Positions 16,431-64,000 of a stretch of DNA of 64,000 nt are shown here, piece after piece (position 1 is the first letter of the stretch; the number at the start of each line of letters is the position of its first letter). The notes below the pieces were generated by a model. It worked only from the letters and a program-made list of their open reading frames with translations. It made no database searches and had not been told where the DNA came from. This DNA is from Malacoraja senta (lineage: Eukaryota), in contig CM075987.1 in the NCBI GenBank assembly GCA_038087875.1, positions 18,106,001-18,170,000 on the forward strand. Direction: 5' to 3'. Made by a program: the position numbers and the translations under genes.

Positions 16431-16994
16431 ACACTGGGACACTGCCTGATCTCATTAACTGAGCTGCCAGCCCAAGAATTCATTCGGCCCACAATGTCCA
16501 TACTAGCCATCTGGAAACCAGTTCCTTCGGCCCACAACACACATACTAGCGCAACAGAAAGCCCCCCCCCCCCCCCCACTGGCCTGCAATATTGGAATTG
16601 GTGGAGAGGTGGAATATTGCGTTGGGTGCCCAGCCCTCCCGTGTGATGCTGGGACCCAACGGGTCCCACATAGTCTAGTACCTAGTATGTTCTGTTGTGC
16701 TGAAGCAAAGCAAGAATTTCATTGTCCTATCAGGGACACATGACAATAAACTCTCTTGAATCTTAAGGTTAGACTGTGCACATCACTCCCCCCCCCCCTC
16801 CCCTCCCCCTCCCCGCCGTCCCCAACCTCCACCTTGAGTGGGATGCCTGTGCTTCTCTTGGGTCTGTACAATAAACAGGTGGCTGGAGGATCCTCAGCTT
16901 GTGAATCTTTGGTAGAAATAGGTGTAGCCCAGATCACGCGGTGGTTTATCCGAGGTACAGACTTTCTGGTCAATGCAGATCACACACCTGACGG

Positions 16995-17677
16995 GGAGAG
17001 AGGAAGAATGAGAAGGTAGAGAGGGAACTGTGTGTTGGGGTGAGAGGGAGAGGGGGATGAGGAGGTAGATAGGGAATGGTGTGATATAAAGAGGGAGAGA
17101 GGAGGAGAGAGACATGGGGTGGAGTGTGAGATGAGAGTGATGGAGGAGTGGGAGAGAGAGAAGGGGGAGATTGGGAAGAGGGAGCGGGTGGAGCGGGAAG
17201 TGGAGGAGTGTTGGGAGAGAGGGAAGGTGTAGGGAGAGAGAATGGTAGTCGTGTGTGGAGACAGAGGTGGAGGTGAGCGATTGGGAGTGAGAATGGCGTA
17301 TGAGTGTGGGAAGAGATGGGGAGGTGTGTGGGGAGTCAGAGGGGACGAGAGTGAGGAGAGTGGGAATGGAGTGAGGAGAGGGGAGGTGTATTGTGGAGTC
17401 CGAGGACCCGAGGAGTGGGACGAGAGAGGATGTGGGGTAGGAGGCGGCATGAGGAGCGTGTGGATAGCAGGGGGAGGGGTGTGGTGAGTGAGAGGGGGTG
17501 GAGTGAGGGAAACGGGACGGAGGAGTGTGGGTAGAGCGAGGGGATGAGTGTGAGAAGGCTGGTGGGAGTGAGGTGAGCAAGAGGGTCAGGTGTGGGTAGA
17601 GAGAGAGGGGAGGTGTGAGGGTGGTGGGGTGGAGAATGGGGAAGGGGGAGTTGGGGGAGTTGGGGGAGAGTGGAGAG
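16995..17677. repeat. G/A-rich low-complexity tract; continues at 22988-24090 beyond the Harbinger insertion
   Basis: Polypurine composition on the + strand. Confidence 0.9.
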
Positions 17678-17969
17678 TTAAGACTCTGTCTCACGGTGTT
17701 GCGGTCATTGGCGGTGAAGCGCGGCGTCGCTGGAAGAGGGGACCGCACGTCAACCGCGAGAGCGCCGAGCCTATGCCGCGGGAGCGCCGCACGGATGCTG
17801 CGCGGGGGCCGAGTGATCTCAGTACGGCCGGTCCCACGAGCTTGCGGTAAGTTAAAAAAAATTTAGCCTTACCGGAAGCTGTTGCTGTGCGTATGCCGGG
17901 TGACCACCGCACGGCCTGTCCAACGAGCATGCGATCGCGGACTTACCGGAAGCGGGGGGGTGCGCGGAC

Positions 17970-18059
17970 GTCCATTTTGGGAGGAGTCTATAAGCTCGAG
18001 CCTGACGCCATTTTGAGCGTATTTGTGAAGCTCGAGCCTGACGCCATTTTTTTGCAGGT
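17970..18059 (+). promoter_or_regulatory. Putative transposase promoter / non-coding first exon
   Basis: 23-bp direct repeat aagctcgagcctgacgccatttt (17992-18014, 18028-18050) with YY1-like GCCATTTT; donor CAG|GTAATC at 18057/18058; acceptor ttttgcAG at 18621-18622. Confidence 0.55.
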
Positions 18060-18655
18060 AATCAAAATCGCTGGCTATCAAAAAGATATATAATTTTGAA
18101 AATCATGCTGGGAAAAGGTCTTTATTATTGAGAGTCTGAAACATTCTAACCACTATTAATATAATTGATTTATAGCCTGATTTTCTATACCAAGAGGTTT
18201 CTTAGAAACACAACTGTCCCATTATAGTATAATACCTGCACTGATTTAGACTACAGGTGGTTCTGCTATAATATGAGAGTTTTGTTCCTAAAACCTTGTG
18301 TTATAGAAATTTGCTTTATAAAAGACAATTTTATAAAGGGGGTTAGGGCCTAGGAATTGTAGACCAGCAATAACAAAGTTAGTAATAATAATAGGATGAT
18401 TGTAAATAACAATATATCGCTTGTCGACTTCAGTGGTCACTCGTGGTTACAGTAGCAGCTGTGTTCGTAGAGAGACAATGAACATAGAACAGTATAACAC
18501 AGGAACAGGCCCTTTGGTCCACAAAGTCCATGCCAACTCTCCCTACGTAAACTGAGCCTACAGTGAAAGTGAAAATAACTTGTTCAGAATATTTGCACTT
18601 ATTCTTTATCTTAATTTTGCAGCAAACTTTATTTGGACCTGTAAACTACTGCACA

Positions 18656-19960
18656 ATGGAAGAGATTGAGATTGCATTGCTGCTACACCAACAGACACTT
18701 CTCTTAGCAGCAGCCCTCATGGTTGCAGGTCAGCCGTGCAGCAGTTCAACAAAGAAGGTTATGAAGAAGAAGAAGAAGCCCAGGAAGAGGTCTGTGTGGA
18801 CGAGGTCTTTGTTCCGGATGAGACTTACTTTGGGCCAGTATGAGACCATGATGATGGATCTGCAGCGGGTAGATGATGCTGCCTTTAGAAATTTCACCAG
18901 GATCCCCCCTGACCTGTTTCAGGAGCTCAAGACACGAGTCGGACCTCTACTGCAGAAAAGGGACACCGTCATGCGGAAGTCACTGGAACCAGGACTGCGC
19001 CTAGCCATCACCCTCCGCTACCTTGCATCAGGGGATTCCTACAAGAGCCTCTCGTATAACTTCCGTGTGGCTCACAACACCATCAGCAGTGTAGTCCGAG
19101 AGACTTGTGACGCCATCATCAAAACATATGATGAGCTTATTGACTGCCCAACTACACCAGACGGGTGGAGGAGTGTGGCGCACGGCTTTCAAAGCAGTTG
19201 GAACTTCCTGCACACATGTGGGGCTGTTGATGGGAAGCATGTGGCCATCCGGTGTCCACCCGGGGGAGGTTCTGTGTACTTCAACTACAAGAAGTTCCAT
19301 TCCATCGTGCTGTTAGCTGTGGTAGATGCAAACTACAACTTCATGTTTGTGAATGTGGGCACACCTGGCAGTGCCGCAGATGGAGGGATCTGGAGAGAGA
19401 CCTCCCTTGGGCAAGCATTGGAAGAAGGGAGAGCAGGCCTTCCTGATCCAGAACCTCTGCCGGGAGAAGACAACCCTGACATCACCTACGCACTGGTTGG
19501 TGATGATGCCTTCGCACTCAGGCCATGGATGATGAAGCCATACCCTCACAGGGGGATGTCAAGGGAGCAAAGGATCTTCAATTACAGGCTGTCCAGGGCT
19601 AGGAGGGTAGTGGAAAATTCTTTTGGTATCCTTGCTAGCAGATTCAGATGCCTGCTGACAACAATGGAGCAGGAGCCCGAGAATGTGCAGGCCATTGTCT
19701 ACGCGGCATGTGTCCTCCATAACCTGATCCGCACCAGAGGTGCATCTGCAGCCTTGGTGGAGGGTGACACGATGGACAAACAGACTGGTGAAGTCACACC
19801 AGGTTCATGGAGAGCTGCAAGACAGGCATCACTGATGGTGGCACTAGGGTCATTGCAAGGAAACACCAGCAACAAAAGAGCAAAGGAGCTGAGGAACCAT
19901 CTCTGTGCTTACTATAACTCAGAGCGAGGCAGTGTACCCTGGCAGGACAATATGTTTTGA
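18656..19960 (+). CDS. Harbinger (HARBI1-like DDE_Tnp_4) transposase, 434 aa from ATG 18656
   Basis: Uninterrupted ORF; 'LAITLRYLASGDSY' HTH region, catalytic 'GAVDGKH', 'LVGDDAF', 'RVVENSFGILASRFRCL', 'ACVLHN'; AATAAA at 20240. Confidence 0.95.
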   Translation: MEEIEIALLLHQQTLLLAAALMVAGQPCSSSTKKVMKKKKKPRKRSVWTRSLFRMRLTLGQYETMMMDLQRVDDAAFRNFTRIPPDLFQELKTRVGPLLQKRDTVMRKSLEPGLRLAITLRYLASGDSYKSLSYNFRVAHNTISSVVRETCDAIIKTYDELIDCPTTPDGWRSVAHGFQSSWNFLHTCGAVDGKHVAIRCPPGGGSVYFNYKKFHSIVLLAVVDANYNFMFVNVGTPGSAADGGIWRETSLGQALEEGRAGLPDPEPLPGEDNPDITYALVGDDAFALRPWMMKPYPHRGMSREQRIFNYRLSRARRVVENSFGILASRFRCLLTTMEQEPENVQAIVYAACVLHNLIRTRGASAALVEGDTMDKQTGEVTPGSWRAARQASLMVALGSLQGNTSNKRAKELRNHLCAYYNSERGSVPWQDNMF

Positions 19961-20568
19961 GGATCAAAAGCAAACAGGGGATGTCAGGGTTGTCTTCTCA
20001 CGGCAGAGGTACCCGATCATGAAGGCCCCAGATCTAACAAAAGTGCGATCCATGTATGTTGATGGATGGTTTTACATTGTGAAATTATTAATTCTGTGTT
20101 AATAGTAATACCTACATCACTTATTTTAAAATTGCCTGATCTTTAAAGCGTTTAAATGCCATTGTTTGATTTTCATGGCTTATAATGACAAATTTTGCAA
20201 TTCAATGCTATTCTATGCCTGTTTGTGTTTTATTTCTCTAATAAATCAATGCTTTTGTATGTGAGATGCATTCCATCATTAGAGGTTGTTTCCATATGAG
20301 AGATCTACGCCATGATTAACAGACACTTTTTTTCACCATACAATATTAAATTTAAACTGTTTATTTAGTGGAAACAATTAACATATTGAAAAACAAGAAA
20401 TTCTTTTTAAATATGCAACACAATTCCACAGAACATTGTTCATTAGTGCAAGCAAACAAATAACGTAGTGAGAAACAACAGTGAATTAAACGTTAATGTG
20501 CAACACACAAGCACACACCATAGTGAATTTTGGGGGCAATCTCACTCCTTACGGCCCATGTCCACATG

Positions 20569-22437
20569 TCAATTATCAATATAAAATTCTGAGAGTTCTG
20601 TGCCGGAGTTTGTGCTTTCTTCGGGGCCATCAAATTGCACATGAAAATCGCTTTCCCCTAGCCTATCCATGCCACGTGATGAATGATGTGGTGGTGGGGT
20701 GTGTCCACTGACATAGTGGGGGGGGCCTGCCATCCACGGGTATGCCATAGAACGGGATTCCATCCTTGCCTGTGGGCAAAACACATAAGCGTATCAATAT
20801 GTATCGGTGCCAAACAAATCTTATAAAACAAATCACAACCTTTCACAAGCTGTGTGTTAGAGACAATCTTGAGTCAGGCTGAAGACTCACAAATGTTTCA
20901 CAGTGTGCCTGGGGAGGATATTGTGGTGGCATCATCATGGTTTGTTGCAGTGGCACTAATGGCATGGGCCTCATCGGACTCTGCAACACAAAGAAAATCG
21001 TAGTAAATGATTCATAGACAGCATTAAATTAAAACTTTTATAAATTCAATAAACTTTGATTAAAATATTTTACTGGCAGAGCAAGTCTGTGTGCCCTTGC
21101 CAAGGCCAATCCCTCTATACTGTAGCGTTGCCAATTTTCCTCAGGGATCAAAAACATCTCCTCCTTCAGTAACATTGCGTAAGCATGGACGATCCTTTCC
21201 TGCGACGTCCTTGGCTGTGACAAAACGTTTATCATGCCCGACGTTGTCTTTGCCTGTTGCATGATCTGCAACAAGAGAGTACAATCATGATAATTATATT
21301 GTGGGATGCGATGGAGAAACGTGGACGTAGGGCGGAGTGAAAGAGATTTGATGATGGGTAATCCAAAAGCACTTACATCCGTGAACATCTCCCGTTGAAG
21401 ACCTTGAACAGCCACCTCGCTATCTGACGCAGTTGTGCAGGCCCGCTTCCGTTTTGCATGCTGCTGCAGTTCGACAGCAGTGCATGACCCGGATGGTCCA
21501 TGTGAGGGTCCCTCTAGCGGATCAGGCTCGCCCTCACTCGAGTCCGCGCACGTTGATACACCCACAGTACACTTGAAGAAAGTGAATGCATATCATAAAT
21601 GTGCAAGGTCATCAGGACGTAGCAAGAAAAGTGAACAAGTTATCATTGTTAAAATATTTTTGACTGACTTGCCGACAAATATTAATTGTCACATAATTTT
21701 CGTAATTATTCACCTTCCTGCAACTTTCCTTCCTCTGCACTCTTACAATGTGGTCCCGCACGAACCCCCATTTGTCATATATCCACTGGTCTCTGTCAGT
21801 CAGTGTCCTACTGCCAGAGCCAGACTTGCCAAGACTTTGAGAAATTTTCCCGAACCGTGTCCTCTGACTCTTTAGCCATTGACACAGTTGGTCATCTGTG
21901 AAAACATAGAATAAATGAAGATAAGTGTTGAGCAACTTATAATATGAATTGGGACTTCAATTACAAACACAGAAATGTAGATAAACTACAAATTATGTAC
22001 TTACAAGAGCAGTCAGGGAACTCCTTCACCTTTTCTCCAATTCTGACGTTGCGGAGACCCCTGTTCCTAAAATCACGGTGGGTCTTGTCATGCAGCTCAT
22101 GGTGGGCCTGATACCATTCCACCAGGTCCCCCTCTTGTTCCCTTGAAAAATTATATGGCTTTGAGCCAGACCTGTTCCACACCCATGCAGGGACATAAGC
22201 TGGAGCAGGAGATGGGCCAGCAGATGGGGCAGCAGATGGGGAAACAGATGAGGCAGCAGATGGAGAAGCAGATGGGGCAGCAGATGTGGAAGCAGATGGG
22301 GCAGGAGATGGGACAGGTAATGAAGCAGGGGCAGGGGCAGGAGCAGTAGCTGGACCCTCCAGTACCTGAATGTTTTCCATTATTACTTTTTTAACTTTGT
22401 CCTGCATCGATCTTCTTACACTCCTTGTTCTCCTCAT
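20569..22437 (-). CDS. Six-exon MADF/Myb-SANT-like DNA-binding protein of the Harbinger element (430 aa). Exons 22437-22005, 21895-21714, 21571-21377, 21265-21074, 20980-20891, 20769-20569
   Basis: All five introns GT..AG with consistent phase (1,0,0,0,0); spliced 1293 nt open; MADF-like 'FSREQEGDLVEWYQAHHELHDKTHRDFRN...QWLKSQRTRFGK...WGFVRDHI'; minus-strand AATAAA at 20360-20365. Confidence 0.85.
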
Positions 22438-22987
22438 GTTTCTAATAAACTGTCAAACACTCCGTTTGAAAAACGCGGTAAAATGCTACAATGTTGAAGT
22501 CTCAAATCTCGCGTGGTTTGGACGTGAACAGCTAAAAGAGGTGGGCCGACTGCGAAAGGACGTCGTGCGGCGTCGGGTGATGACGACATCGCGCAACGAG
22601 ACGCGCTACGCGATGACGTCATTTAGGATCGCTGGGCTGTTGCGGCGGTAGTGCTGATCGTGGCGCTGTGGCGGCGCCCGTGCCGCACATGTGCCGCACT
22701 GGCGGAGGCTGTGGCGGTGAAGGTTCAACTCGCGGCGCTCTTGCCACACTGGCAGCGGCTGTGGCGGTGACCGTGCCGCACTCGTGCCTCACTGGCGGCG
22801 GCTGTGCGGTAAGATATTATTTTTCGACATTGCTGGCTTTTTGTGAGCACTGTGCGGTGTTGGGACCAATGCCGCACGGCCTCGGCGGTGTGCGTTTCAC
22901 CGAACCCGCGGTCTCTGGCGGTCCACGAGCGGTAGATACTTCCTGTATCACTGCCAATGACCGCAGACTCGTGAGACAGGCCTTTTA

Positions 22988-24090
22988 GTGGAGTAATGGG
23001 GAGGGAGGGGAAGTGTGTGGATGAATGGTGAAGAGTTGGGGGAGAGAGGAGAGTGAGGGGAGAGGGGGAATGGTGGACGGGAGAGGGAGCTAAATGTAGG
23101 AATAAAAGAAGGGGAGGATTGTGTGAGCGAGTGGTGGAGTTGTGTGGGGAGACTGAAGGCGGAGTGAGGGGGAGAGGTGGAGGGGAAGAGGGGACAACGT
23201 GGCAGGGAGAGAGAGTGGGCAATTATGGAGCGATGTTGTGAGGACATCAGGAGGGGATGAGAACGATACGATGTGGAGAGTTTGTAATGAAGTGAGGAGC
23301 GACGGAGTGTGGAGAAAGAGTGAGGGGAGTGGGGAGAAAGATAAAGAGAGAGCGCGAGAGAGAGAGAGAAAGAGAGAGAGTGAGGAATGCGAAGTGAGAG
23401 GTCCGGAGAAATGTCGACAAGGTCGGAGGAGTGGCGGGAGAGAGTGAGCGAGGAGTGGGTAGAGAGAGGGAAGGCAGGGCGAGCGAGTGGGCTGGAGGTG
23501 TGTGTGGATAGGATGGGGGTGGTATGAGGAGAGAGGGGGAGAGAGGGAAGGTGGGGAGAGAGAGAGGAGGCCGGAGGTGTGTGGGGATAGGGTGGTGGTG
23601 GTATGAGGAGAGAGGGGGAGAGAGGGAAGGTGGGGAGAGAGAGAGAGGGCCGGAGGTGTGTGGGGATAGGGTGGTATGAGGAGAGAGAGGGAGAGAGGGG
23701 CATTGTGTGGAGAGCGATGGGGAGGAGTGTGGAGAGAGAGTGCGGGATATTGGGAAAGGGGATGGGGTGGGAAGAGTGGAAAGGGAGGTTTGCGGATAGA
23801 GTGCGGGAGGAAGGGATGAGGAGAGAAAGAGGGCCGGAGGAGGGTGGGGAGAGAGAGTTGCTGTGGTTAGAGAGATGCGGGGGAATGGGCAGAGTGGGGT
23901 AGGTGTGGAGGAGTGGGGTGAGAGGGGGAGGAGGATGGCAGAGAGGGATTAGGAGGGGAGAGAGGTAGAGGATTGGAGAGAGATATGATTTGGGAGATTG
24001 AGAGGCGAGTGCGAGGGAATAGGGCGGTGTGCGGGACGAAGGGGAGAGTGGGGATGAGGAAAGGGAGGCAGCTGGAGAGGGGGGGGGAGA
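22988..24090. repeat. G/A-rich low-complexity tract
   Basis: Polypurine composition, local internal duplications at ~23520-23700. Confidence 0.9.
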
Positions 24091-24431
24091 GTCGGACTCT
24101 GGTAAGGCGACGGCTGCGGCCCACTGGTGGGCGGTGGAATGGCCACGGCCGGCAGAGCTGCAGGGAGTGGAGTGGCACACGGGCGAAGCGTCGGGAGTGC
24201 CTGTCAGTGGATAAACGGGAAGGCAGTGAGGGTGGATGGCTCCGGTGAGGCAGCGAGGGTCGGCAGTGTCGCTGAAGGTCGGCGGCAACGGCCACAGGTG
24301 AGGCCGCGTGGAGAGGTCCATGACAGCGTCATCCTTGGTGATCCAGGCCCGAGATCGGTCAGGAAGGCAGTGAGTGTTGGTGCTGCTCCTCGTGGCAGCA
24401 ATGGTGTCATGGGGCTGTCAGTTCTGCCTGT

Positions 24432-24752
24432 CCCTTACTCCCCCAAGCTGGCTACCTACCATTCCCCTTACTCCCCCAAGTTGGCTACCTCCCATTTCCC
24501 TTACACCCCCAAGCTGGCTACCTATCATTCCCCTTACTCCCCCAAGCTGGCTACCTACCATTCCCTTTACTCCCCCAAGTTGGCTACCTCCCATTTCCCT
24601 TACACCCCCAAGCTGGCTACCTACCATTCCCTTTACTCCCCCAAGTTGGCTACCTCCCATTCCCCTTACTCCCCCAAGCTGGCTACCTCCCATTCCCCTT
24701 ACTCCCCCAAGCTGGCTTCCTCCCATTCCCCTTACTCCCCCAAGCTGGCTTC
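24432..24752. repeat. 33-bp minisatellite, ~9.5 copies
   Basis: Unit ccccaagctggctacctaccattccccttactc. Confidence 0.95.
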
Positions 24753-24914
24753 CACCGCACTGTGACGGGCTGTGGGTCAGCAGCGCTCACATACGGGGCC
24801 GCGGCTCCGGGCAACGGACACACGGGGCCAGCAACATACCCGTCAGTCTGGTCCCTCCGCCCACCCAGAGTCACTGACCACATTGCACCGGCACTGGCAC
24901 CATGACCCCCCACC

Positions 24915-58660: not shown

Positions 58661-59804
58661 ATGCGTGTTCAGAACTGCTGTAGATTTGGGAGCAACAGCA
58701 GCAGGAGATTAGCAAGAGATACGACTGATTGGCTCTAGCCCGAGTGGGAGGAGAGAAGTGAGTCAGAGGGGGGAAAACAGTTGAAAAGTAGAAGCCAAGC
58801 ACAGGCAGACTGTGTATCAATATAGTAATCCGGGTAGGGGATTCTTAAATAGGACCAGTTATTTACTTATATAAGATGGGCGGCCAGGAGATGTGCCAAT
58901 ACTGTGAGATGTGGGAATTTGTCGACACCATTGAAGTAGATGGTGTGGATGATCCCTACAGCTGCAGTAAGTGTTTGAGGCTAGCGGAGCTCGAGCTCCG
59001 CATTGAGGAGCTGGAGATCCAACTTCATACGCTGCGGTACATCAGGGAGGGGGAGTATTACCTGGATGTTTTGTGCCAGGGGATGGTCACACCGACCAGT
59101 TTAACTAATTCAGTAGTGAGTGAGCAAGGAAAGGAAGGTGTGGCCATAAGCGAGGCAGGTAGGGGGAACCAGGAGGAGATGCGGCAGGAGCCACAGCCCT
59201 TGTTCCTGACGAGCATGACCAAGGCTCTTACTCAATGTGAGGATGGGATCAGGGGCTGTGGGAGGGATGAGCAACCTGGCTGCAGCACCGTGGATCAGGG
59301 GGACATTCAAGAGGGGGGAGTTAGAAGAAATGCCGTTGTGATAGGGGATAGTATTATTCGGGGGGTAGATAAGGTTCTCTGCGGCCAGCAGAACATGTCC
59401 CGAAGGCTGTGTTGCCTACCCGGTGCTAGGGTTAAGGATATCTCTGCGATGCTGGAGAGAAATTTGCAGAGGGAGGGGGAGGATCCAGTGGTCGTGGTCC
59501 ATGTGGGGACCAATGACATAGGAAGGACGAGGAAGGAGGATCTGCTGAAGGAGTTTGAGCAGTTAGGGAATAAATTAAAAAGCAGAACCTCGAGGGTACT
59601 GATCTCCGGATTGCTACCTGAGCCACGGGCCAAATCGGCGAGAGTACGTAAAATTAAAAAGCTGAATGCGTGGCTCAAAGACTGGTGTGGGAAAAATGGG
59701 TTTGGTTTCTTGGGCCACTGGCACCAGTACTGGGACAGGGGGGATCTGTTCTGTAAGGACGGACTTCACCTGAACGGTGCTGGGACTGGGGTCCTGGCAA
59801 ATCA
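58661..59804 (+). mobile_element. CR1 5' part only (5' UTR plus ORF1 from 58876), 3'-truncated; copy 2 only
   Basis: CQYC...CSKC zinc finger, coiled coil 'LAELELRIEELEIQL', SGNH blocks 'IGDSII', 'VGTND', 'DGLH'; ends at a poly-C tract. Confidence 0.88.
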
Positions 59805-61894
59805 CCCCCCCCCCCCCACTGGCCTGCAATATTGGAATTGGTGAAGAGGTGGAATATTGCGTTGGGTGCCCAGCCCTCCCGTGTGATGCTGGGACCCAAC
59901 GGGTCCCACATAGTCTAGTACCTAGTATGTTCTGTTGTGCTGAAGCAAAGCAAGAATTTCATTGTCCTATCAGGGACACATGACAATAAACTCTCTTGAA
60001 TCTTGAGGTTAGACATGCACATCACCCCCCCCCCCCCCCATCCCCTCCCCCTCCCCGCCGTCCCCAACCTCCACCTTGAGTGGGATGCCTGTGCTTCTCT
60101 TGGGTCTGTACAATAAACAGGTGGCTGGAGGATCCTCAGCTTGTGAATCTTTGGTAGAAATAGGTGTAGCCCAGATCACGCGGTGGTTTATCCGAGGTAC
60201 AGACTTTCTGGTCAATGCAGATCACACACCTGACGGGGAGAGAGGAAGAATGAGAAGGTAGAGAGGGAACTGTGTGTTGGGGTGAGAGGGAGAGGGGGAT
60301 GAGGAGGTAGATAGGGAATGGTGTGATATAAAGAGGGAGAGAGGAGGAGAGAGACATGGGGTGGAGTGTGAGATGAGAGTGATGGAGGAGTGGGAGAGAG
60401 AGAAGGGGAGACTGGGAAGAGGGAGAGGGTGGAGCGGGAAGTGGATTAGTGTGGGGAGAGAGGGAAGGTGTAGGGAGAGAGAATGGTAGTCGTGTGTGGA
60501 GAGAGAGGTGGAGGTGAGCGATTGGGAGTGAGAATGGCGTATGAGTGTGGGAAGAGATGGGGAGGTGTGTGGGGAGTCAGAGGGGACGAGAGTGAGGAGA
60601 GTGGGAATGGAGTGAGGAGAGGGGAGGTGTATTGTGGAGTCCGAGGACCCGAGGAGTGGGACGAGAGAGGATGTGGGGTAGGAGGCGGCATGAGGAGCGT
60701 GTGGATAGCAGGGGGAGGGGTGTGGTGAGTGAGAGGGGGTGGAGTGAGGGAAACGGGATGGAGGAGTGTGGGTAGAGTGAGGGGATGAGTGTGAGAAGGC
60801 TGGTGGGAGTGAGGTGAGCAAGAGGGTCAGGTGTGGGTAGAGAGAGGGGAGGTGTGAGGGTGGTGGGGTGAAGAATGGGGAAGGGGGAGTTGGGGGAGTT
60901 GGGGGAGAGTGGAGAGTTAAGACTCTGTCTCACGGTGTTGCGGTCATTGGCGGTGAAGCGCGGCGTCGCTGGAAGAGGGGACCGCACGTCAACCGCGAGA
61001 GCGCCGAGCCTATGCCGCGGGAGCGCCGCACGGATGCTGCGCGGGGGCCGAGTGATCTCAGTACGGCCGGTCCCACGAGCTTGCGGTAAGTTAAAAAAAA
61101 TTTAGCCTTACCGGAAGCTGTTGCTGTGCGTATGCCGGGTGACCACCGCACGGCCTGTCCAACGAGCATGCGATCGCGGACTTACCGGAAGCGGGGGGGT
61201 GCGCGGACGTCCATTTTGGGAGGAGTCTATAAGCTCGAGCCTGACGCCATTTTGAGCGTATTTGTGAAGCTCGAGCCTGACGCCATTTTTTTGCAGGTAA
61301 TCAAAATCGCTGGCTATCAAAAAGATATATAATTTTGAAAATCATGCTGGGAAAAGGTCTTTATTATTGAGAGTCTGAAACATTCTAACCACTATTAATA
61401 TAATTGATTTATAGCCTGATTTTCTATACCAAGAGGTTTCTTAGAAACACAACTGTCCCATTATAGTATAATACCTGCACTGATTTAGACTACAGGTGGT
61501 TCTGCTATAATATGAGAGTTTTGTTCCTAAAACCTTGTGTTATAGAAATTTGCTTTATAAAAGACAATTTTATAAAGGGGGTTAGGGCCTAGGAATTGTA
61601 GACCAGCAATAACAAAGTTAGTAATAATAATAGGATGATTGTAAATAACAATATATCGCTTGTCGACTTCAGTGGTCACTCGTGGTTACAGTAGCAGCTG
61701 TGTTCGTAGAGAGACAATGAACATAGAACAGTATAACACAGGAACAGGCCCTTTGGTCCACAAAGTCCATGCCAACTCTCCCTACGTAAACTGAGCCTAC
61801 AGTGAAAGTGAAAATAACTTGTTCAGAATATTTGCACTTATTCTTTATCTTAATTTTGCAGCAAACTTTATTTGGACCTGTAAACTACTGCACA

Positions 61895-63199
61895 ATGGAA
61901 GAGATTGAGATTGCATTGCTGCTACACCAACAGACACTTCTCTTAGCAGCAGCCCTCATGGTTGCAGGTCAGCCGTGCAGCAGTTCAACAAAGAAGGTTA
62001 TGAAGAAGAAGAAGAAGCCCAGGAAGAGGTCTGTGTGGACAAGGTCTTTGTTCCGGATGAGACTTACTTTGGGCCAGTATGAGACCATGATGATGGATCT
62101 GCAGCGGGTAGATGATGCTGCCTTTAGAAATTTCACCAGGATCCCCCCTGACCTGTTTCAGGAGCTCAAGACACGAGTCGGACCTCTACTGCAGAAAAGG
62201 GACACCGTCATGCGGAAGTCACTGGAACCAGGACTGCGCCTAGCCATCACCCTCCGCTACCTTGCATCAGGGGATTCCTACAAGAGCCTCTCGTATAACT
62301 TCCGTGTGGCTCACAACACCATCAGCAGTGTAGTCCGAGAGACTTGTGACGCCATCATCAAAACATATGATGAGCTTATTGACTGCCCAACTACACCAGA
62401 CGGGTGGAGGAGTGTGGCGCACGGCTTTCAAAGCAGTTGGAACTTCCTGCACACATGTGGGGCTGTTGATGGGAAGCATGTGGCCATCCGGTGTCCACCC
62501 GGGGGAGGTTCTGTGTACTTCAACTACAAGAAGTTCCATTCCATCGTGCTGTTAGCTGTGGTAGATGCAAACTACAACTTCATGTTTGTGAATGTGGGCA
62601 CACCTGGCAGTGCCGCAGATGGAGGGATCTGGAGAGAGACCTCCCTTGGGCAAGCATTGGAAGAAGGGAGAGCAGGCCTTCCTGATCCAGAACCTCTGCC
62701 GGGAGAAGACAACCCTGACATCACCTACGCACTGGTTGGTGATGATGCCTTCGCACTCAGGCCATGGATGATGAAGCCATACCCTCACAGGGGGATGTCA
62801 AGGGAGCAAAGGATCTTCAATTACAGGCTGTCCAGGGCTAGGAGGGTAGTGGAAAATTCTTTTGGTATCCTTGCTAGCAGATTCAGATGCCTGCTGACAA
62901 CAATGGAGCAGGAGCCCGAGAATGTGCAGGCCATTGTCTACGCGGCATGTGTCCTCCATAACCTGATCCGCACCAGAGGTGCATCTGCAGCCTTGGTGGA
63001 GGGTGACACGATGGACAAACAGACTGGTGAAGTCACACCAGGTTCATGGAGAGCTGCAAGACAGGCATCACTGATGGTGGCACTAGGGTCATTGCAAGGA
63101 AACACCAGCAACAAAAGAGCAAAGGAGCTGAGGAACCATCTCTGTGCTTACTATAACTCAGAGCGAGGCAGTGTACCCTGGCAGGACAATATGTTTTGA
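61895..63199 (+). CDS. Harbinger transposase, copy 2
   Basis: ORF-track translation identical to copy 1. Confidence 0.95.
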   Translation: MEEIEIALLLHQQTLLLAAALMVAGQPCSSSTKKVMKKKKKPRKRSVWTRSLFRMRLTLGQYETMMMDLQRVDDAAFRNFTRIPPDLFQELKTRVGPLLQKRDTVMRKSLEPGLRLAITLRYLASGDSYKSLSYNFRVAHNTISSVVRETCDAIIKTYDELIDCPTTPDGWRSVAHGFQSSWNFLHTCGAVDGKHVAIRCPPGGGSVYFNYKKFHSIVLLAVVDANYNFMFVNVGTPGSAADGGIWRETSLGQALEEGRAGLPDPEPLPGEDNPDITYALVGDDAFALRPWMMKPYPHRGMSREQRIFNYRLSRARRVVENSFGILASRFRCLLTTMEQEPENVQAIVYAACVLHNLIRTRGASAALVEGDTMDKQTGEVTPGSWRAARQASLMVALGSLQGNTSNKRAKELRNHLCAYYNSERGSVPWQDNMF

Positions 63200-63807
63200 G
63201 GATCAAAAGCAAACAGGGGATGTCAGGGTTGTCTTCTCACGGCAGAGGTACCCGATCATGAAGGCCCCAGATCTAACAAAAGTGCGATCCATGTATGTTG
63301 ATGGATGGTTTTACATTGTGAAATTATTAATTCTGTGTTAATAGTAATACCTACATCACTTATTTTAAAATTGCCTGATCTTTAAAGCGTTTAAATGCCA
63401 TTGTTTGATTTTCATGGCTTATAATGACAAATTTTGCAATTCAATGCTATTCTATGCCTGTTTGTGTTTTATTTCTCTAATAAATCAATGCTTTTGTATG
63501 TGAGATGCATTCCATCATTAGAGGTTGTTTCCATATGAGAGATCTACGCCATGATTAACAGACACTTTTTTTCACAATACAATATTAAATTTAAACTGTT
63601 TATTTAGTGGAAACAATTAACATATTGAAAAACAAGAAATTCTTTTTAAATATGCAACACAATTCCACAGAACATTGTTCATTAGTGCAAGCAAACAAAT
63701 AACGTAGTGAGAAACAACAGTGAATTAAACGTTAATGTGCAACACTCAAGCAGACACAACAGTGAATTTTGGGGGCAATCTCACTCCTTACGGCCCATGT
63801 CCACATG

Positions 63808-64000
63808 TCAATTATCAATATAAAAGTCTGAGAGTTCTGTGCCGGAGTTTGTGCTTTCTTCGGGACCCTCAAATTGCACATGGAAATCGCTTTCCCCTAG
63901 CCTATCCATGCCACGTGATGAATGATGTGGCGGTGGGGTGTGTCCACTGACATAGTGGGGGGGGCCTGCCATCCACGGGTATGCCATAGAACGGGATTCC
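63808..64000 (-). CDS. Last exon (partial) of the MADF gene, copy 2
   Basis: Matches 20569-20761 with about five substitutions and no new stop. Confidence 0.75.
   Translation of the reverse strand, partial: ESRSMAYPWMAGPPHYVSGHTPPPHHSSRGMDRLGESDFHVQFEGPEESTNSGTELSDFYIDN

What the first reader, a model, noticed from the sequence alone, without database searches (positions are those of the whole stretch)
20569..22437. Hidden six-exon MADF/Myb-like gene reconstructed from splice signals
Four fragmentary minus-strand ORFs plus a 90-nt exon absent from the ORF track join through five canonical GT-AG introns into one 1293-nt frame (430 aa). It has a basic N-terminus, a Pro/Ser/Ala 12-bp-repeat linker, a MADF-like domain split by intron 1, a predicted helical segment in exon 4 (possibly BESS-like; inference) and a Pro/Met-rich tail. 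Phase agreement at every junction makes chance unlikely.
Basis: partly seen in the sequence, partly recalled or inferred. Interest (0 to 1): 0.72.

Follow-up and report, generated by a model that had tools for sequence, protein, structure and literature searches.

The report
Helper gene of a Harbinger transposon
The spliced gene is real, but it is the ordinary DNA-binding helper gene of a common jumping element (a Harbinger transposon) that sits beside its transposase gene and is present in many copies in this genome.

Summary
Six minus-strand exons join through five GT..AG introns into a 1293-nt frame of 430 codons.

It is not a hidden host gene. It is the second, Myb-like/MADF gene of a 5,304-bp PIF/Harbinger DNA transposon (window 17681-22984). 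That element has terminal inverted repeats, a 3-bp TTA target-site duplication, and a convergent DDE_Tnp_4 transposase gene. The genome holds at least 150 related copies.

Junctions 1-4 are well supported.
- Annotated skate proteins align colinearly across them.
- Their GT and AG are each kept in 23-25 of 25 copies.
- Substitutions shared between copies pile up at third codon positions (p = 1e-5), and dN/dS is about 0.29.

Junction 5 is uncertain. Its GT is TT in 17 of 25 copies, and skate models join or end differently there.

MADF is supported. The homologue P0001 passes Pfam's cut-off, and 135 of 149 relatives match MADF. BESS is not supported: 0 of 149 match it.

No RNA data could be found. 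The scan has noted Harbinger two-gene modules before in other genomes.

This is a new member of a known kind, of low interest. One oddity remains unexplained: the Myb-like exons are far more diverged between subfamilies than introns 3 and 5 or the transposase gene.

The parts
17678..17680 (.). Left copy of the 3-bp target-site duplication (TTA)
   Evidence: TTA flanks both ends. Other copies carry TTA, TAA or TGA at different loci.
17681..17717 (+). Left terminal inverted repeat
   Evidence: arms 17686-17717 and 22948-22979, 32 nt, 84% complementary; similarity to independent copies stops here; the terminus pattern occurs 3 times in the window against 0 expected.
17743..17912 (.). Left subterminal cluster of CCGCAC motifs (3 copies); candidate binding sites for the Myb-like protein (inference)
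   Evidence: 10 motifs in 825 subterminal nt against 0.94 expected; 0 of 2000 shuffles reach 10. They are not clearly better conserved than their flanks.
18656..19960 (+). Transposase gene, single coding exon, 434 codons plus stop
   Evidence: DDE_Tnp_4 at 1.3e-34, Plant_tran at 2.7e-07; 2535 or more relatives, named 'putative nuclease HARBI1' or 'ALP1-like', covering up to 100% of the query; it keeps all invariant columns of 46 aligned transposases.
19436..20027 (.). Internal inverted repeat: 52 nt of transposase coding sequence (19436-19487) repeated in reverse just past the stop codon (19976-20027)
   Evidence: 88% complementary; the same pair is found in the other copies.
20569..20769 (-). 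Exon 6 of the Myb-like gene (66 codons plus stop); holds a C8 run at 20718-20725 that varies in length between copies
   Evidence: The frame is kept in copies whose C run stays in frame. Skate P0004 and P0010 carry a homologous tail.
20891..20980 (-). Exon 5 (30 codons); its 3' end is uncertain
   Evidence: the donor GT at 20890 is present in 8 of 25 copies and is TT in 17. Skate models join 18 nt upstream, where the window reads GC, or read on into the intron.
21074..21265 (-). Exon 4 (64 codons): conserved C-terminal helical module
   Evidence: helices 2-15, 21-37 and 42-61, mean pLDDT 82.6; conserved in relatives from skates, hagfish, crustaceans and a teleost; dN/dS 0.16-0.24.
21377..21571 (-). 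Exon 3 (65 codons): low-complexity linker with a KRKR stretch
21266..21376 (-). Intron 3: 111 nt, in frame, without a stop, nearly invariant between subfamilies
   Evidence: 0-4 differences in 101-111 nt in 24 copies, against 4-30 in the 192 nt of exon 4.
21714..22155 (-). MADF/Myb-like DNA-binding domain (about residues 95-205), interrupted by intron 1 (22004-21896)
   Evidence: Model of homologue P0001: pLDDT 64-92 over residues 111-200.
22005..22437 (-). Exon 1 (144 codons plus 1 nt): basic N-terminus, Pro/Ser/Ala repeat, first half of the MADF domain
   Evidence: The ATG is kept in 24 of 25 copies.
22201..22316 (-). 12-bp tandem repeat encoding the Pro/Ser/Ala linker
   Evidence: period 12, 9.7 copies; 74 of 78 exon-1 indels between copies are multiples of 3, mostly of 12.
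22565..22877 (.). Right subterminal cluster of CCGCAC/GTGCGG motifs (7 copies), upstream of the Myb-like gene
22948..22984 (-). Right terminal inverted repeat
22985..22987 (.). Right copy of the target-site duplication (TTA)
60920..64000 (+). Second copy of the element, cut by the window's end; it lies in a segmental duplication, not at a separate insertion site
   Evidence: locus L002 matches window 16565-24376 at 97.4% with the flanks included; a left terminus lies at 60925.

Best explanation
The six-exon gene is the second gene of a structurally complete PIF/Harbinger DNA transposon at window 17681-22984. This second gene is the one called 'Myb-like' or 'ORF1' in the literature, and here it is of the MADF type.

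Shown here:
- the element's ends
- the 3-bp target-site duplication
- the convergent DDE transposase gene
- the many copies
- the coding constraint on the spliced frame
- its MADF-type domain.

Inferred from what is established for zebrafish Harbinger3_DR and rice Ping/Pong (passages read in PMC9710019, PMC9392472, PMC9179366):
- The protein enters the nucleus. Candidate signals are the basic N-terminus and a KRKR stretch in exon 3.
- It binds short repeated motifs in the element's subterminal regions through its MADF domain. The candidates here are the CCGCAC clusters.
- It binds the transposase, brings it into the nucleus and to the ends, and so allows cut-and-paste transposition.

My own inference: the conserved three-helix module of exon 4, which is not a BESS motif, is the likeliest protein-contact part.

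The last splice is open.
For: Element.
- DDE_Tnp_4 at 1.3e-34 on the facing strand.
- Inverted termini of 32 nt at 84%.
- Similarity to copies at other loci ends exactly at 17681 and 22984. TTA, TAA or TGA duplications flank 6 of the 7 copies inspected, the window included; the seventh, L010, has TTA on one side and TAA on the other.
- 151 DNA matches from 30 scored candidates of 4413.
- 150 exon-4 matches at 47-100% identity, 13 of them with a stop.

Gene.
- The frame and splice signals are as described.
- It aligns colinearly with the skate model P0001 at 61% identity, E = 4e-145, without gaps at junctions 1-4.
- Donor and acceptor dinucleotides of introns 1-4 are each kept in 23-25 of 25 copies.
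- Third-position excess among shared substitutions: 47, 42 and 86 sites, p = 1e-5.
- dN/dS against the intact copy L007 is 0.29 overall, 0.20 in the MADF part and 0.16 in exon 4.

Domain.
- Pfam MADF_DNA_bdg passes its 22-bit cut-off in P0001, P0005, P0006 and P0007 (24.5, 28.9, 23.7, 23.1 bits).
- It matches 135 of 149 relatives at E <= 0.001.
- The window's spliced product scores 166.6 bits against the relatives' profile.
- The P0001 model has a confident helical domain at 111-200. That domain resembles DNA-binding helix bundles: Sap1 Z 7.9, GT-1 trihelix Z 5.6, Zeste Z 5.3.

Literature. PIF/Harbinger elements carry a transposase gene plus a Myb/SANT/trihelix/MADF gene and make 3-bp duplications. 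The Myb-like protein binds subterminal motifs and imports the transposase (passages).
Against: - No transcript evidence could be obtained, so no junction is confirmed by RNA.
- The window's exon 1 alone scores only 12.3 bits on Pfam MADF and exon 2 alone scores nothing. The joined product could not be given to Pfam.
- Two of the six domain-bearing skate relatives fall below Pfam's cut-off (16.3 and 17.3 bits).
- Fold matches are middling (all Z < 8) and include many homeodomains.
- The fifth donor is TT in 17 of 25 copies.
- Only 3 of 25 copies (window, L002, L007) keep the whole six-exon frame. The transposase frame, by contrast, is whole in 17 of 23 other copies.
- The CCGCAC motifs are enriched but not better conserved than their surroundings.
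- DNA binding, transposase binding and mobility are inferred, not shown.
Confidence: 0.92

Rival explanations
1. Same gene, different 3' end. The real product stops after exon 5 by reading into intron 5 (378 residues), or exon 5 ends 18 nt earlier at a GC donor (424 residues). Under this reading the reader's sixth exon is joined otherwise, or is untranslated in part of the family.
For:
- In 14 of 25 copies the first stop falls only in exon 6, beyond residue 387, so exons 1-5 are open far more often than the whole frame.
- Skate P0011 ends with the read-through peptide. P0004 and P0010 join directly after the Gln codon 18 nt upstream.
- Exon 6 holds a length-variable C run that breaks the frame in many copies.
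Against:
- At the upstream site the window reads GC, a rare donor type (general knowledge).
- The exon-6 peptide is kept across subfamilies where the C run is in frame. Skate P0004 and P0010 have a homologous tail.
- Exon-6 divergence is lowest at second and highest at third codon positions.
Confidence: 0.35
2. A domesticated host gene descended from a Harbinger Myb-like gene (like NAIF1 or the MSANTD genes), not a transposon gene.
For: - The frame is intact and under purifying selection.
- Skate relatives are annotated as ordinary loci.
- Such domestications are recurrent in vertebrates (PMC9392472, passages).
Against: - It lies inside intact inverted ends with a target-site duplication, next to an intact transposase gene.
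- The whole 5.3-kb unit recurs at many unrelated loci at 88-97% identity.
- There are at least 150 exon-4 copies.
Confidence: 0.03
3. A dead relic: the right family, but this copy is silent or inactive, and its open frames persist only because it is fairly young.
For: - The nearest independent copies differ by 3-4%.
- Most copies have a broken Myb-like frame: 22 of 25.
- No RNA holder was listed. That is no evidence either way.
Against: - Both frames, both ends and the duplication are intact in this copy.
- Selection on the frame is visible in the family.
- Activity of a single copy cannot be judged from sequence.
Confidence: 0.4

Closest known systems
Myb-like (SANT/trihelix/MADF) gene of animal PIF/Harbinger transposons, type case zebrafish Harbinger3_DR (Sinzelle et al. 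2008; known to me only through passages in PMC9710019, PMC9392472, PMC9179366)
   Same: A two-gene element: a DDE transposase plus a 300-400-residue DNA-binding helper. 3-bp target duplication. Inverted ends. Repeated subterminal motifs. The helper evolves faster than the transposase; here, Myb-like exons differ 3-16% against about 2.5% for the transposase gene.
   Different: I made no sequence comparison with Harbinger3_DR, because none was on hand. This helper has five introns, a 12-bp repeat linker and a conserved C-terminal three-helix module. The host appears to be a cartilaginous fish, a group for which PMC9179366 (passage) reports absence in elephant shark and calls for more species.
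Predicted skate proteins 'uncharacterized protein LOC116982106' and relatives (Amblyraja radiata, Leucoraja erinacea)
   Same: 61% identity over 361 columns. Same domain order and the same exon junctions 1-4.
   Different: These are other species and diverged subfamilies. Several models are chimeric ('ensconsin-like') or retain introns 4 or 5. None is described as a transposon gene.
NAIF1 and MSANTD1-4, vertebrate host genes derived from Harbinger Myb-like genes (PMC9392472)
   Same: The same ancestral kind of trihelix DNA-binding protein. NAIF1 binds the transposase-derived HARBI1 (passage).
   Different: Those are single-copy host genes without transposon ends. This gene is inside a mobile-looking, multi-copy element. 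I made no sequence comparison.
Insect MADF-BESS proteins (Pfam MADF_DNA_bdg plus BESS)
   Same: A MADF-type DNA-binding domain followed by a C-terminal protein-contact region.
   Different: There is no BESS match in the window's exon 4, in P0001, or in any of 149 relatives. The C-terminal module here is an unnamed helical unit.

Membership tests
PIF/Harbinger transposon superfamily | Transposase of the DDE_Tnp_4 / Plant_tran type | tested here: met
   PF13359 at 1.3e-34, PF04827 at 2.7e-07; relatives are named HARBI1 or ALP1-like.
PIF/Harbinger transposon superfamily | A second gene encoding a Myb/SANT/trihelix/MADF protein | tested here: met
PIF/Harbinger transposon superfamily | 3-bp target-site duplication, usually TWA | tested here: met
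   TTA here. Five other copies carry matching TTA, TAA or TGA. One (L010) has TTA on one side and TAA on the other.
PIF/Harbinger transposon superfamily | Terminal inverted repeats at the limits of copy-to-copy similarity | tested here: met
PIF/Harbinger transposon superfamily | Transposition that needs both proteins | not testable with these tools
   This needs a cell-based excision or integration assay.
Pfam MADF_DNA_bdg (PF10545) | Score at or above the 22-bit gathering cut-off | tested here: inconclusive
   Window exon 1 alone scores 12.3 bits and exon 2 alone has no match. Homologue P0001 scores 24.5 bits. 4 of 6 domain-bearing skate relatives pass. 135 of 149 relatives match at E <= 0.001. 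The window's spliced product scores 166.6 bits against the relatives' profile.
Pfam MADF_DNA_bdg (PF10545) | Helical Myb/SANT-like fold | tested here: inconclusive
   The P0001 model has helices at 113-125, 140-151, 159-180 and 192-216, with pLDDT 64-92. Best fold matches are Sap1 Z 7.9, GT-1 Z 5.6, Zeste Z 5.3 and MYB RAD Z 5.0, among many homeodomains. All lie under the tool's caution line of Z 8.
BESS motif (Pfam PF02944) | A match to the BESS profile C-terminal of the MADF domain | tested here: not met
   Exon 4 has no family at E <= 1. P0001 matches only MADF at E <= 1. 0 of 149 relatives match BESS at E <= 0.001.
Domesticated Harbinger-derived host genes (NAIF1/MSANTD type) | A single-copy locus without transposon ends | tested here: not met
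   The gene lies inside an element with inverted ends and a duplication, and that element is present in many copies.

The most novel reading that the evidence does not exclude
Introns 3 and 5 of the helper gene may be functional parts of the element, not spacers.

Against the 17 older-subfamily copies they are almost invariant: 1-4 differences in 111 nt and 3-6 in 107-121 nt. In the same copies the flanking exons differ at 14-45% of synonymous sites. The transposase gene differs at only 4-6.5% of synonymous sites.

Intron 3 is in frame and open, and it would insert 37 residues into the first helix of the C-terminal module. Intron 5 read-through truncates the tail.

A regulated retention switch that makes an altered, possibly inhibitory, helper would be a new self-limiting control for Harbinger elements. 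The analogy is the tissue-specific third intron of the Drosophila P element (recalled, not checked here).

The plainer alternative is patchy recombination between diverged lineages. The most diverged block is inside exon 4, not at its edges, and L007 and L025 are recombinant for it.
Probability: 0.1. Interest if true: 0.55.

Novelty: new member of a known kind. Interest (0 to 1): 0.2.

Why it matters
Mainly for annotation. Genes like this are called 'uncharacterized protein' or are fused into chimeric models in related species. They should be masked or labelled as transposon genes.

A structurally complete Harbinger copy has both frames open, intact ends and many relatives. In what looks like a cartilaginous fish, it adds a data point where the literature I could search is thin. 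PMC9179366 reports absence from elephant shark and asks for more species. A search for Harbinger with skate, shark and elasmobranch terms listed no dedicated study (listing only).

It could also be raw material for studying how the helper protein recruits the transposase, because the conserved C-terminal helical module has no name yet.

None of this is surprising to a transposon specialist.

Tried and rejected
RNA evidence.
- The look-up of sequencing runs listed no RNA holder.
- The two runs that hold the stretch (X1, X2; kind not on record) were laid. Their short contigs cover exons and introns alike and show no joint at any predicted junction. They say nothing about splicing or expression.

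Complex prediction.
- Exon-4 module against the transposase gave 'no answer', score 0.00. The alignments I supplied were not used. This is no evidence either way.

Sequence search of solved structures.
- A search with the family profile found nothing meaningful. The best hit was EzrA at E = 0.02.

Fold searches.
- Foldseek on the whole P0001 model gave no match at E <= 0.001.
- A fold search with the exon-4 model gave a best Z of 4.9, all generic helical hairpins.

Rfam.
- No family reached its gathering score in 17600-23050.

Literature.
- Sinzelle et al. 2008 is not held under PMC2290759. I used other papers' accounts of it.

Ideas dropped.
I dropped this because the C-run lengths fall in all three frame classes.
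- I tested whether CCGCAC motifs are better conserved than their flanks. They are not clearly so, and the left-end alignment is poor.

Earlier scan notes.
- There were none for this genome.

Full report
**What is there**

They are 22437-22005, 21895-21714, 21571-21377, 21265-21074, 20980-20891 and 20769-20569. They encode 430 residues and a stop.
- Every intron starts GT and ends AG, with a pyrimidine-rich 3' end.
- Intron 1 is phase 1 and the rest are phase 0.
- Introns are 22-42% G+C against 49-58% for exons.
- The four fragmentary frames, and the short frame that holds the 90-nt exon, are all in the stop-to-stop list.
- The Pro/Ser/Ala linker is a 12-bp tandem repeat at 22201-22316.

**Context**

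The facing plus-strand frame 18656-19960 is a 434-residue DDE_Tnp_4 transposase.
- Pfam gives 1.3e-34.
- It has thousands of relatives, named 'putative nuclease HARBI1' or 'ALP1-like'.

The genome is 1.94 Gb in 6182 contigs. A DNA search with 18000-22800 returned 151 matches, from 30 scored candidates of 4413.

Aligning the window to 11 independent copies shows where similarity starts and stops: at about 17676-17686 and at 22985-22989.
- The termini are imperfect inverted repeats, 32 nt at 84%.
- Each of 7 inspected copies, the window included, is flanked by a 3-bp duplication: TTA, TAA or TGA. One copy has TTA on one side and TAA on the other.

The unit is therefore a 5,304-bp PIF/Harbinger element at 17681-22984, with a TTA duplication.

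A second copy starts at about 60920. It shares its flanks with the first copy: 16565-24376 at 97.4%. It is therefore part of a segmental duplication, not a new insertion.

**Is the gene model right?**

*Homologues.* The only close database relatives are predicted proteins of skates. The spliced product aligns to P0001 at 61% identity, E = 4e-145. There is no gap at residues 144/145, 205/206, 270/271 and 334/335, which are junctions 1-4.

*Copies.* I compared 25 copies: the window, 11 of the 12 loci (the twelfth, L001, is the window's own stretch), and 13 fetched.
- Each donor GT and each acceptor AG of introns 1-4 is kept in 23-25 of 25 copies.

*Selection.*
- Sites with substitutions shared by two or more copies number 47, 42 and 86 at codon positions 1, 2 and 3 (p = 1e-5). 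Singletons number 75, 70 and 67 (p = 0.75). This is the signature of a frame selected while the family spread and decaying neutrally after insertion.
- dN/dS against the intact copy L007 is 0.29.
- Exon-1 indels are multiples of three in 74 of 78 cases.

*Junction 5 is weaker.*
- The GT is TT in the 17 older copies.
- Skate P0004 and P0010 join exon 6 directly after the Gln codon 18 nt upstream, where the window reads GC.
- P0011 reads on into the intron.
- Exon 6 also carries a C run whose length varies and breaks the frame in many copies.
- Only 3 of 25 copies keep the whole frame, but 14 of 25 are open through exon 5.

**What the protein is**

Taken by single exons, Pfam gives only a weak MADF hit in exon 1: 12.3 bits, E = 0.22.

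I could not hand the joined product to Pfam, so I tested it through relatives.
- P0001 scores 24.5 bits on MADF_DNA_bdg, against a cut-off of 22.
- P0005, P0006 and P0007 pass. P0002 and P0003 do not.
- A profile of 8 skate proteins found 1266 cluster representatives at E <= 0.001 and 480 at E <= 1e-10.
- Of 149 aligned members (5 skate proteins plus 144 top hits), 135 match MADF_DNA_bdg and none matches BESS.
- An HMM built from 137 of those rows, leaving out the 12 closest, scores the window's spliced product at 166.6 bits. The single alignment runs through the exon 1/2 junction.

Structure predictions agree in outline.
- The AlphaFold model of P0001 is confident only in the domain: pLDDT 64-92 over residues 111-200.
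- That part resembles DNA-binding helix bundles: Sap1 Z 7.9, GT-1 trihelix Z 5.6, Zeste Z 5.3, and many homeodomains. All are below the tool's caution line.

Exon 4 forms three helices.
- It is conserved in relatives from skates, hagfish, shrimp, crab and a toadfish.
- It has no named family and no specific fold match.

**How it most likely works**

This part is inferred. According to passages in PMC9710019, PMC9392472 and PMC9179366, Harbinger elements need both proteins. The Myb-like protein binds a short subterminal motif, binds the N-terminal end of the transposase, and carries it into the nucleus.

Features here that fit:
- The candidate binding sites are ten CCGCAC/GTGCGG motifs in the 825 subterminal nt, against 0.94 expected.
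- The protein has a basic N-terminus and a KRKR stretch.

I propose the exon-4 module as the transposase contact. The one complex prediction gave no answer.

**An unexplained pattern**

Against the older subfamily, the Myb-like exons differ much more than everything around them.

| Region | Divergence from the older subfamily |
|---|---|
| Myb-like exons, synonymous sites | dS 0.16-0.23 |
| Exon 4 module, synonymous sites | dS 0.39-0.45 |
| Intron 3 | 1-4 of 111 nt |
| Intron 5 | 3-6 of 107-121 nt |
| Transposase gene, synonymous sites | dS 0.04-0.065 |
| Intergenic spacer | 3-7% |

The most diverged block lies inside exon 4. It holds 8 of 9 consecutive codons with third-position changes, and two copies are recombinant for it.

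Recombination among the many coexisting lineages is the plain reading. Constraint on the introns is the bolder one.

**Verdict**

This is a correctly reconstructed gene. It is the ordinary helper gene of a Harbinger transposon, and a new member of a known kind.

Noticed in passing
window 19436-19487 and 19976-20027: A 52-nt piece of the transposase coding sequence is repeated in reverse orientation just after the stop codon (88% complementary). The pair is present in the other copies too. A transcript running through both would fold back on itself. Its function is unknown.
   Followed up: partly
window 21266-21376 (intron 3) and 20770-20890 (intron 5): These two introns are nearly invariant across subfamilies whose flanking exons are 10-16% diverged. 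Intron 3 is in frame and has no stop.
   Followed up: partly
window 16565-24376 and 59800-64000 (locus L002): The element and at least 1 kb of flank on each side are duplicated about 43 kb away at 97.4% identity. This is a segmental duplication that carries the transposon.
   Followed up: partly
window 20718-20725 (minus strand C run in exon 6): This homopolymer varies in length between copies, from 7 to more than 20, and is the main source of frame breaks in the helper gene's last exon.
   Followed up: yes
window 22556-22700: In the two laid runs this stretch has 10-30 times the depth of the rest of the element. It may also occur in a far more abundant short repeat, for example a derived miniature element.
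   Followed up: no
window 23000-24900: Beyond the element's right end lie long low-complexity, purine/pyrimidine-skewed repeats that give long open frames on several strands. They look like simple-sequence DNA, not genes.
   Followed up: no
window 18056-18622: Upstream of the transposase ATG there is a GT after CAG at about 18057 and a pyrimidine tract plus CAG at about 18620. This suggests a non-coding first exon and a 5' intron for the transposase gene.
   Followed up: no
proteins P0008, P0009, P0011 (skates): Some skate gene models named 'ensconsin-like' fuse a Glu-rich N-terminus to exons 3-5 of this helper gene. These are either chimeric predictions or host-transposon fusion transcripts.
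   Followed up: no
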